Shown piece after piece: positions 29,041-53,958 of a stretch of DNA of 64,000 nucleotides; positions within the stretch are counted from its first letter, which is position 1; each line of letters opens with the position of its first letter. The DNA lies in contig OZ024748.1 of assembly GCA_964016885.1 (NCBI GenBank), forward strand, positions 52,638,001-52,702,000, written 5' to 3'. The notes under the pieces are model-generated. The model had not been told where the DNA came from and did not search any database. It was given only the letters and a program-made list of their open reading frames with translations. Origin of the DNA: Eledone cirrhosa. Lineage: Eukaryota. The position numbers and the translations under genes are program-made.

Positions 29041-29089
<49 letters not shown>

Positions 29090-29119
29090 AGATCAAAAGA
29101 TGGTTAAATGAGTTCCATG

Positions 29120-29190
29120 TATTTTATTATGCGCATTTCAAAAACAAACATCATCATGCAATAATATTTGTGTTTTCATCAGATAAAATA
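29120..29190 (-). ncRNA. Type I hammerhead ribozyme (antisense arm of element A)
   Basis: Reverse complement TATTTTAT-CTGATGA-AAACACAAAT...GTTTTT-GAAA-TGCGCA-TA-ATAAAATA. Confidence 0.8.
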
Positions 29191-29307
29191 GGAAGACATG
29201 ATATGAAGGTTAAAAAACACTTGTGGATAGTGCAGTTTTAAATCAACATATGTTGATTTAAAACTGCACTATCCACAAGTGTGTTTAACCTTCATATCAT
29301 GTCTTCC

Positions 29308-29377
29308 TATTTTATCTGATGAAAACCAAATTTTATTGCATGATGATGTTTGTTTTTGAAATGCGCATAATAAAATA
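29308..29377 (+). ncRNA. Type I hammerhead ribozyme (sense arm of element A)
   Basis: Stem I TATTTTAT/ATAAAATA, CTGATGA 29316-29322, stem II AAAC../..GTTT, GAAA 29358-29361, palindromic ATGCGCAT, predicted AUA cleavage after 29369. Confidence 0.82.
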
Positions 29378-29527
29378 CATGGAACTCATTTAACCATCTT
29401 TTGATCTTATATATTATGTATACTCCAGTCCTACAAACTGTAGAGTCCTTCTTATCCGATATCTGCATTGCTTTATTGTACTTCAATAAAACTCACCTCC
29501 TACATATATATATATATATATATATAT

Positions 29528-29829
29528 TGAAGTTTCCGTTGAAAATTGAAAAAGTCATAGGAGTGAAGAGTGCTCTATGTAAGTTACAGAGCTAAATTTA
29601 ATGTATAATAAACAATAAAATATAATTACCTCATTACCAGAGGTTTCCCAAATAGATGTTTCCAGAAAAATCACCCAAGAAAGGCCTTTCTTGGGGAGAT
29701 TTTTCAAATATTTCACTATGTACTAAATTGCCTTGTCTGACGAACGAATGCGGACGTTTCTTTTATTCGTCTTAGTCGGGAAACCTCTGGTAATGAGGTA
29801 ATTATATTGTATTGTTTATTATACATTAT
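29528..29829 (-). mobile_element. Hammerhead element, family B, with about 50-bp inverted arms
   Basis: Arms 29599-29649 / 29778-29829; plus-strand AATTGCCTTGT-CTGACGA...GAAAC-CTCTG-GTA-ATGAGGTAATT (29726-29803; stem II imperfect); tail on minus strand TAGCTCTGT...AGAGCAC. Confidence 0.7.
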
Positions 29830-29840
29830 ATATATATATA

Positions 29841-30143
29841 GGAAGTATTTCCATAGGAAAGGTAAAGGAAAAGAGAGTGCTCTATGTAGGCTACAGAGCT
29901 TTTTAGTTATGTAATAAACAATACGAGATAATTATTTCATTTACCAATGGTTTCTTGAAGACATATTTATATCTGTCTCCAGTCGTCAGAACGAATAAAT
30001 AATGTGGTGTGTTTATCAAATCCATATTTAATAAACACCTTGTTATTTATTCGTTCTGACGACTGAAGGAAGATATAAATATGTGTCTTCAAGAAACCAC
30101 TGGTAAACGAAATAATTATCCCATGTTGTTTATTACATAACTA
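29841..30143 (-). mobile_element. Palindromic hammerhead element, family C (related to B)
   Basis: About 115-bp arms 29905-30143; hammerhead on + (TTCGTT-CTGACGA...GAAAC-CACTG-GTA-AACGAA, 30050-30111) and on - (29936-29995); tail shares GAGTGCTCTATGTA..TACAGAGCT with B. Confidence 0.8.
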
Positions 30144-44246: not shown

Positions 44247-44284
<38 letters not shown>

Positions 44285-44294
<10 letters not shown>

Positions 44295-44472
44295 AGATCA
44301 AAAGATAGTTAAGTATTTTATTATGCGCATTTCAAAAACAAATATCATCATGGGATGATATCTGCGTTCTCATCAGATAAAATAGGGAGACATGATATGA
44401 AGCTTAAAAAACACTTGTGAATAGTGAAGTTTTAAATAAATTGCTTTATTGTGCTACAGTAAAACTCACCTC
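44285..44472. mobile_element. Family A hammerhead element, collapsed to one arm plus the end of the tail
   Basis: Left arm (TATTTTATTATGCGCATTTC...TCATCAGATAAAATA) joined directly to TTGCTTTATTGTGCTACAGTAAAACTCACCTC. Confidence 0.8.
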
Positions 44473-53080: not shown

Positions 53081-53100
53081 ATATATATATATATATATAA

Positions 53101-53535
53101 TATATAATATATAAGATTAAAAGATGGTTAAAAGAGCTCCATGTATTTTATTATGCCCATTTCTAAAACAAATATCATCATGCAATAACATTTGCATTTT
53201 CGTCAGATAAAATAGGGAGACATGATATGAAGTTTAAAACACACTTGTGAATAGTGCAGTTTTAAATCAACATATATATGATATGTTGATTTAAAACTGC
53301 ACTATTCACAAGTGTGTTTTAACCTTCATATCATGTCTCCCTATTTTATCTGACGAAAACACAAATGTTATTGCATGATGATATTTGTTTTTGAAATGTG
53401 CATAATAAAATACATGGAACTCTTTTAACCATCTTTTGATCTTATATATTATTTATACTCCAGTCCTACAAACTGTAGAGTGCTACTTATCCGATATCTG
53501 CATTGCTTTATTGTACTACAATAAAACTCACCTCC

Positions 53536-53538
<3 letters not shown>
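53101..53538 (+). mobile_element. Palindromic hammerhead element, family A, second full copy
   Basis: Same arms, centre and tail as 29081-29504; plus-strand hammerhead 53342-53412 (CTGACGA...GAAA-TGTGCA-TA). Confidence 0.85.
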
Positions 53539-53574
<36 letters not shown>

Positions 53575-53581
<7 letters not shown>

Positions 53582-53958
53582 TTCAAAATATTAATAAATA
53601 TAGACATTCATGTGATCAAATATATTTTATTATATATATTTCAGAGGTACTGTGCTGTTTCCTCAGTACGTCCTCATCAGATAAAATAAATTGAAGTGTT
53701 ACATACCTCAACTATGCTCAGCACAGTTGAGGTATGTCAGACATCAATTTATTTTACTGCTGAGGACGTACTGAGGAAACAGCACATATCTCTGAAATAT
53801 ATATAATAAAATATATATTTTGATTATGCAAATATTTTTCATTTTTAACATTTTGAATAATATTAAAAACTCCAGGAAAACTTCACAGTTGAGTGCTTCT
53901 AATCTATTGTTAAATTGCATTCGTTGAGTAATCAACAAACCATACTAATCTTTGGTCA
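53575..53958 (+). mobile_element. Palindromic hammerhead element, family G
   Basis: Arms about 53575-53865; intact hammerhead on - (53623-53688: TATTTTAT-CTGATGA-GGACGTACTG..CAGTACCTCT-GAAA-TATATA-TA-ATAAAATA); the + arm core is mutated to CTGCTGA; tail AACTCCAG...GAGTGC. Confidence 0.8.

What the first reader, a model, noticed from the sequence alone, without database searches (positions are those of the whole stretch)
29081..30143. Fold-back, double-hammerhead non-coding elements stacked in a (TA)n tract
Seen: three consecutive elements separated only by (TA)n. Each is an inverted repeat (about 168, 50 and 115-bp arms) carrying a type I hammerhead core (CTGAnGA...GAAA, closable stem I). In A and C an intact ribozyme lies on both strands. 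Each has an unpaired 65-90-bp tail on one side and no ORF. Established: minimal type I hammerheads with palindromic stem III occur in the pseudo-LTRs of Penelope-like elements, which often carry an inverted pLTR. Inference: these are non-autonomous, microsatellite-targeting 'hairpin ribozyme' retroelements whose transcript from either strand is a rod-like RNA with one sense ribozyme masked by its antisense arm. I do not know of this palindromic form being described as a family system in cephalopods, but cannot check.
Basis: partly seen in the sequence, partly recalled or inferred. Interest (0 to 1): 0.9.

Follow-up and report, generated by a model that had tools for sequence, protein, structure and literature searches.

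The report
Mirror-image stumps of Penelope retrotransposons
The three hairpin-shaped elements are the cut-short ends of three protein-coding Penelope-type jumping genes that insert into TA repeats, and their mirror-image halves were likely built during each insertion, likely by copying the RNA twice, once from each broken DNA strand.

Summary
The sequence observation holds: three inverted repeats with type I hammerhead motifs, one-sided tails and (TA)n spacers. The reading as a non-autonomous 'hairpin ribozyme' family does not. Each element is the 3' end (pseudo-LTR + tail) of a different autonomous RT + GIY-YIG Penelope-like element with Hydra-clade motifs (A: at least 9,135 tails genome-wide), plus an inverted tail-less pLTR, the published PLE architecture. 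Fold points vary; the arms of one copy share private alleles (A 151/180, shuffled 0.21); short and long copies have the same haplotypes. So the palindrome is made per insertion, not inherited.

Beyond the known: arm ends are fixed at both edges of the tail, arms truncate independently and sometimes do not overlap, and family A has a sharp 5' stop with an excess extra G. This fits two first-strand cDNAs, primed from both target strands and joined end to end (about 60%), rather than the published self-priming idea. Against: 0/30 tandem pLTRs stop there, B and C show no sharp stop, and no RNA data were found. No excess of ends at the ribozyme cut site. The scan reported similar PLE stumps in another genome (e1-7858806).

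The parts
29081..29251 (-). Family A inverted, tail-less pLTR copy (element positions -170 to 0), with hammerhead motif (core 29182, cut after 29128); merges into (TA)n on the left
29248..29417 (+). Family A pLTR arm from the -170 stop to the pLTR/tail junction; hammerhead motif 29308-29377, cut after 29369; central ATAT (29248-29251) shared with the other arm
   Evidence: 905 identical centres genome-wide
29418..29505 (+). Family A tail, 88 nt; in tandem copies it runs on into the 5' UTR and ORF
29506..29524 (.). (TA)n between the A tail and the B tail
29525..29598 (-). Family B tail, about 75 nt, starting with a hairpin shared with family C
29599..29683 (-). Family B tail-side pLTR arm (-55 to 0) plus filler and a remnant of the centre; 5' half of the hammerhead missing
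   Evidence: remnant read
29684..29828 (+). Family B inverted tail-less pLTR copy (-144 to 0), hammerhead motif 29728-29801, cut after 29792
29829..29841 (.). short (TA)n between B and the C tail
29842..29903 (-). Family C tail, about 62 nt
29904..30021 (-). Family C tail-side pLTR arm (-115 to 0), hammerhead core 29989, cut after 29942
30010..30143 (+). Family C inverted tail-less pLTR copy (-130 to 0), hammerhead core 30056, cut after 30105; then (TA)n

Best explanation
A, B and C are short, 5'-truncated insertions of three autonomous Penelope-like retrotransposon families with Hydra-clade motifs, each made of a pseudo-LTR plus tail and an inverted tail-less copy that was likely built during insertion, likely by two reverse transcriptions primed from the two cut strands of a (TA)n target. 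Shown: family identity, fixed 3' ends at the two edges of the tail, variable 5' ends, same-source arms. Inferred (about 60%): the GIY-YIG endonuclease nicks both strands of (TA)n. One 3' end primes RT at the end of the tail; the other primes at the TA-like pLTR/tail junction. Both cDNAs run towards the RNA 5' end and stop independently, and their 3' ends are joined by short self-complementary overlaps or filler. In family A both often run off at -170, likely a capped RNA 5' end, which gives the perfect palindrome in the window. Each insertion leaves (TA)n on both sides, so families stack. The hammerheads are passengers of the pLTR; two per element follows from the duplication. The confidence figure is for identity plus per-insertion origin.
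For: Long copies: L123 holds inverted 5' copy + partial tandem pLTR/tail + ORF + pLTR/tail. B copies carry RT/EN upstream or on the inverted arm (L128, L130, L131, L132). Six C-selected loci (L170, L176, L178, L181, L186, L187) share one RT-EN family at 84-91% DNA identity. Hydra motifs SDKT, RRLRW, CxCX5C, CxxC, CxH. Position-ordered A sample, first 70 of 9,135: tail end fixed in 70/70; (TA)n after the tail in 66/66 non-tandem copies; tail-less inverted arm found in 49/70 (34/40 where up to 4 kb upstream was held), ending at the junction in 48/49; B 11/30 and C 15/30 with only 1.5 kb held. Arms share minor alleles: A 151/180 vs 0.21 shuffled (0/2000); C 21/47 (1/2000); B 6/17 (44/2000). Of 33 abutting A pairs the inverted arm is longer in 11, the tail arm in 5, equal in 17; L202, L208 and L218 have non-overlapping arms. 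Arm length classes agree within a copy, 13/0/4/32, p=9e-9. The 21-mer just 3' of -170 occurs 12,076 times, the one just 5' of it 2,367 times. 4,231 arms have a non-templated base at -171; first 100 listed: G45, T45, A10 (hand count). Junctions such as CATATC|GATATG occur, and contigs of three public runs from one sample show C, CT, CA or CATA after the -170 end. In vitro, an anole PLE cuts and extends both strands and starts RT at two sites bounding the tail (PMC11167929).
Against: 0 of 30 tandem 5' pLTRs stop at -170, which a single capped full-length template would predict; a second, read-through or circular template must be assumed. B shows no sharp stop (24/30 arms run past -277). C shows only a broad cluster (15/30 at -89 to -100, in a region where subfamilies differ). 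Later deletions can mimic asymmetry, and window B probably shows one. Gene conversion between arms could add to allele sharing. T is as common as G at -171. Pfam found no family in the five A and B fragments among 8 proteins scanned; no C-family fragment was scanned, so domain calls rest on motifs. No phylogeny was run, and no RNA evidence was found.
Confidence: 0.85

Rival explanations
1. Same PLE families, but the inverted arm arises by self-priming: one cDNA folds back on itself (or an antisense RNA self-primes), and the endonuclease trims the hairpin at the TA-like junction.
For: The published interpretation of head-to-head PLE palindromes is self-priming on an antisense template (PMC3846280); Craig et al. 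ascribe tail and inversions to EN cleavage (PMC8557442). 17/33 abutting pairs are symmetric and 905 centres are perfect. It explains allele sharing directly.
Against: Fold-back cannot give an inverted arm longer than, or not overlapping, the tail arm (11/33; L202, L208, L218) without later deletion. It does not explain junctions in which both arms end at -170 with their own extra base.
Confidence: 0.3
2. Short A copies are semi-independent: solo pLTRs are transcribed from -170 and re-inserted in trans as single-arm RNAs, the palindrome being rebuilt each time.
For: Would explain why -170 stops are common in solo copies but absent from 30 tandem pLTRs. pLTRs are reported to act in cis for trans-mobilisation (PMC3846280).
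Against: No haplotype is confined to short copies; allele frequencies match across subfamilies in 38 vs 38 copies.
Confidence: 0.12
3. One reading: a non-autonomous family whose whole palindrome is transcribed as a rod-like RNA with a masked ribozyme and propagates as such.
For: Recurrent centre in A (905 exact); any read-through transcript would fold as a rod.
Against: Variable centres in all three families; arms track each other copy by copy; no left/right diagnostic alleles; long ORF-bearing parents exist.
Confidence: 0.03

Closest known systems
Hydra clade of C-terminal EN+ Penelope-like elements (Craig et al. 2021, PMC8557442), incl. Hydra-1_Obim of Octopus bimaculoides
   Same: RT then GIY-YIG, DKT, CxCX5C linker, CxxC/CxH, no CCHH, hammerhead near the 3' end, (TA)n targets; B and C RT stretches resemble Hydra-1_Obim by eye
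   Different: A unit is 3.6 kb (Hydra generally <3 kb); RWK reads RWI in A; the hammerhead shown for Hydra-1_Obim differs in sequence from A, B, C; thousands of copies
Typical PLE insertion: partial tandem pLTR, inverted 5'-truncated copy, one-sided tail (PMC3846280, PMC8557442)
   Same: Identical architecture; L123 is a full example
   Different: Tails are 62-88 nt rather than 30-40; many copies are reduced to the pLTR alone; A has a sharp 5' stop
Minimal type I hammerheads of metazoan PLEs (Cervera and de la Pena 2014, PMC4209133)
   Same: Core, long stem II, short stem III (palindromic in A); opposite-strand pairs already noted there
   Different: No G10.1-C11.1 pair; longer stem I in A and B; 3-bp stem III in B and C
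L1 twin priming (recalled, no call)
   Same: Second target strand primes internally on the RNA; inverted 5' segment joined by microhomology
   Different: Here both start sites are fixed and the arms usually overlap in sequence, giving palindromes; the inverted form is the rule
Non-LTR retrozymes (bioRxiv 10.64898/2026.07.22.740005)
   Same: PLE pLTR-derived, type I hammerhead, non-coding
   Different: Retrozymes are head-to-tail tandems; these are head-to-head, single, and not a separate lineage

Membership tests
EN+ Penelope-like element | Single ORF with RT and C-terminal GIY-YIG upstream of the pLTR | tested here: met
   A: 637-aa open frame in L255, layout in L123; B and C as broken frames. 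By motif only: Pfam silent on the A and B pieces, C not scanned
EN+ Penelope-like element | Partial tandem forming a pLTR | tested here: met
   A: 213 exact tail-to-5'UTR read-throughs, L123; not shown for B or C
EN+ Penelope-like element | Inverted 5'-truncated copy and one-sided tail | tested here: met
   A 49/70, B 11/30, C 15/30, lower bounds; tails longer than published
EN+ Penelope-like element | Target-site duplication | not testable with these tools
   Insertions lie within (TA)n
Hydra clade | CxCX5C linker; CCHH absent; CxxC and CxH near the C-terminus | tested here: met
   A CNCPAKNKC, B CSCRVKSEC, C CNCRKPEEC; CxxC and CxH in all three (vs 76)
Hydra clade | DKT and RWK motifs | tested here: inconclusive
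   A has SDKT and RRLRWI; N-termini of B and C not recovered
Hydra clade | Insertion into (TA)n | tested here: met
   A 66/66, B 27/30, C 26/30
Hydra clade | Generally shorter than 3 kb | tested here: not met
   A unit 3.6 kb, with a long 3' UTR; a tendency in the paper, not a strict criterion
Hydra clade | RT phylogeny groups with Hydra references | not tested
   Reference proteins were seen only as supplement excerpts
Metazoan minimal hammerhead | CUGANGA / GAAA / UH core with stems I and II | tested here: met
   Descriptor hits in all three families, 0 in 30 shuffles; core kept across 10 motif clusters
Metazoan minimal hammerhead | G10.1-C11.1 pair | tested here: not met
   A-U, A.G, C.A in the commonest copies of A, B, C
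Metazoan minimal hammerhead | Self-cleavage | not testable with these tools
   No genomic excess of 5' ends at the cut site
Non-LTR retrozyme | Head-to-tail tandem non-coding monomers | tested here: not met
   Head-to-head single copies of ORF-bearing families
Non-autonomous fold-back family or MITE | Fixed centre and its own lineage, or a transposase partner | tested here: not met
   Variable centres, shared haplotypes, RT partners

The most novel reading that the evidence does not exclude
These thousands of stumps record how Penelope-like elements make their inverted pLTR and tail: obligate twin priming, in which both cut target strands start first-strand synthesis at two fixed RNA sites bounding the tail and the two cDNAs are joined 3'-to-3'. 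Short copies come from an uncleaved capped RNA (extra G at -171) and tandem copies from a separate read-through or circular RNA.
Probability: 0.55. Interest if true: 0.65.

Novelty: new member of a known kind. Interest (0 to 1): 0.42.

Why it matters
As elements they are ordinary: new families of a described clade in a described layout, which repeat annotators could mislabel as MITEs or miRNA-like hairpins (one search shows such sub-threshold hits). Their value is mechanistic. How PLEs form tandem/inverted ends is stated to be unresolved (PMC8557442; PMC11167929), and the junction statistics link the in vitro two-strand, two-start result to the genomic inversion. They predict an exact RNA start (-170) and two RT start sites, and suggest that ribozyme-cut RNA is not a main template. 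All of this can be tested.

Tried and rejected
Rfam: only sub-threshold miRNA/hairpin hits, no hammerhead. Pfam: 0 families for 6 of 8 proteins; the two with hits belong to neighbouring elements. RNA runs: no RNA holder listed, which says nothing on expression; three contig runs of unknown kind from one sample were laid instead and cannot show starts or strands. Ribozyme footprint: 86 non-read-through matches at the cut site (-47), 16 of the first 30 being true 5' ends, against 14 at -54 and 168 at -37: no hot spot. 5' stop in B and C: no sharp one. Neptune assignment (my first guess) dropped after reading the Hydra criteria. Identity-ranked samples are biased by the query, so counts come from position-ordered samples. 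Apparent ends at -443, -454, -530 and -582 are subfamily divergence from the reference and were counted as 'long'. No protein alignment or tree was obtained (one search failed). Searches showed no paper proposing two-strand priming for PLE inversions. Searches found no paper for the cap-G signature, which is recalled. [quoted passage not shown]

Full report
Observation. The three inverted repeats, their one-sided tails and the (TA)n spacers are in the sequence. My hammerhead descriptor hits A-, C+ and C- (6 hits in the window, 0 in 30 shuffles). A+ and B+ have the core and stem I but mutated stem II. Rfam has no hammerhead hit, and none of the three families has the G10.1-C11.1 pair that PMC4209133 calls highly conserved (parts 1-2 of 4 read). 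Positions below count from the pLTR/tail junction (0).

What the elements are. The window lies in a 3.0-Gb genome; the species was not established. Exact tail words occur 9,135 (A), 1,084 (B) and 539 (C) times. Many A copies run upstream into a 3' UTR and a GIY-YIG-type domain. L123 is complete: (TA)n, inverted tail-less copy, partial tandem pLTR with tail, ORF, pLTR, tail, (TA)n. The tail is simply the sequence that follows the pLTR in a tandem: 213 exact read-throughs into the 5' UTR. B copies carry RT and EN. Six loci chosen only by the C upstream region share one RT-EN family at 84-91% identity, about 69% to B's. The proteins have SDKT and RRLRW (A), CxCX5C, CxxC and CxH (A, B, C) and no CCHH. 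These are the Hydra criteria (PMC8557442: section 11 whole, passages, supplement excerpts), and that paper lists a (TA)n-targeting Hydra-1_Obim from Octopus bimaculoides. Pfam recognised none of the five A and B fragments; C was not scanned, and no tree was run.

The palindrome is made per insertion. I sampled by genome position: the first 70 of 9,135 A tails, 30 of 1,084 B, 30 of 539 C. The tail end is fixed (A 70/70) and followed by (TA)n (A 66/66 non-tandem, B 27/30, C 26/30). A tail-less inverted arm was found in 49/70, 11/30 and 15/30 (lower bounds, since 1.5 kb upstream was held for most; 34/40 where up to 4 kb was held). It ends at the junction (A 48/49). 5' ends vary from inside the tail to kilobases away. 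The arms of one copy share minor alleles: A 151/180 against 0.21 for shuffled partners, C 21/47 against 0.16, B 6/17 against 0.09 (weak: 44/2000). The ranked set gave the same result, with no left- or right-specific allele. 38 short and 38 long A copies (ranked and unranked pooled) show the same haplotypes. A self-propagating hairpin family would give the opposite.

How it likely forms. Shown: among 33 abutting A pairs the inverted arm is longer in 11, shorter in 5, equal in 17, and three copies have arms that do not overlap. A folded-back cDNA cannot copy sequence it does not contain, so these need a second primed cDNA or later deletion. Both fixed ends have 2-4 nt of TA microhomology to the target. 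Family A has a sharp boundary at -170: 12,076 exact words just 3' of it, 2,367 just 5'. 4,231 arms have a non-templated base at -171, G in 45, T in 45 and A in 10 of the first 100 listed (hand count). Junctions read as two ends each with an added C, or overlapping by ATAT (905 exact), and contigs from one public sample show the added C too. An extra G is the recalled mark of RT copying a cap. Inferred: both nicked strands prime first-strand synthesis, at +88 and at 0, and the cDNA ends are joined. This matches the in vitro finding that a PLE protein cuts and extends both strands from two RNA sites bounding the tail; passages found there do not link this to inversions (PMC11167929: parts 1-2 of 4 and passages). 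The published account is self-priming on an antisense template (PMC3846280: parts 1-4 of 5).

Against, and unexplained. None of 30 tandem 5' pLTRs stops at -170, and arms are either both within 200 nt or the inverted one is long (13/0/4/32). This needs two template classes: a capped RNA primed near its 5' end, and a read-through or circular RNA as proposed in PMC4209133. B shows no sharp stop and C only a broad cluster. Window B itself probably lost part of one arm after insertion, so some asymmetry is secondary. Gene conversion could add to allele sharing. No RNA holder was listed.

The ribozymes. The core is kept across ten motif clusters with unrelated stems, which points to selection in source elements. 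Two per element follows from the pLTR duplication, and opposite-strand pairs were already linked to truncated PLEs. 5' ends are not enriched at the cut site (86 matches, 16 of 30 checked being true ends; controls 14 and 168), in line with uncleaved RNA being the main substrate in vitro. A read-through transcript of A would fold as a rod, but nothing here shows it is made or used.

Stacking. Each insertion leaves (TA)n on both sides; 9 of 130 sampled loci had another family's hammerhead motif within 600 bp, and the window has another stack at 53100-53800.

Other papers: bioRxiv 10.64898/2026.07.22.740005, part 1 of 5 (supplements not asked for); PMC13282606 and PMC12910113, passages only, with nothing on this structure. 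L1 twin priming and the cap-G mark are recalled.

Verdict. Interest 0.42, carried by the testable mechanism.

Noticed in passing
window 53100-53540: Second family A palindrome, both arms ending at -170 with filler ending in G
   Followed up: partly
window 44280-44472: Family A copy with an inverted arm (-165 to 0) joined to the last part of the tail; the arms do not overlap
   Followed up: partly
window 53580-53800: Palindromic pLTR of another hammerhead-bearing family, stacked on the A tail's (TA)n
   Followed up: no
all loci: Ten clusters of type I hammerhead motifs with unrelated stems; three carry a G-C pair closing stem II. Another family's motif lay within 600 bp in 9 of 130 position-ordered loci, with short downstream flanks in 40 of them
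   Followed up: partly
L123 7300-7590; L255: Asparagine-rich stretch between RT and the CxCX5C linker in family A, recalling the N-rich inserts described in PMC3846280
   Followed up: no
window 29478-29505: Family A tail contains AATAAA about 18 nt before its end: a possible polyadenylation signal near the RT start
   Followed up: no
L054, L055, L171, L186: 3' UTRs of B and C contain internal (TA)n/(TG)n that attract further insertions, so long copies are heavily interrupted
   Followed up: partly
L128 3-836; L131 1679-3151: Other PLE-like ORFs nearby, with Pfam GIY-YIG or weak RVT_1 hits
   Followed up: no
L345: One tandem copy whose 5' pLTR begins exactly at the hammerhead cut site (1 of 30)
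   Followed up: partly
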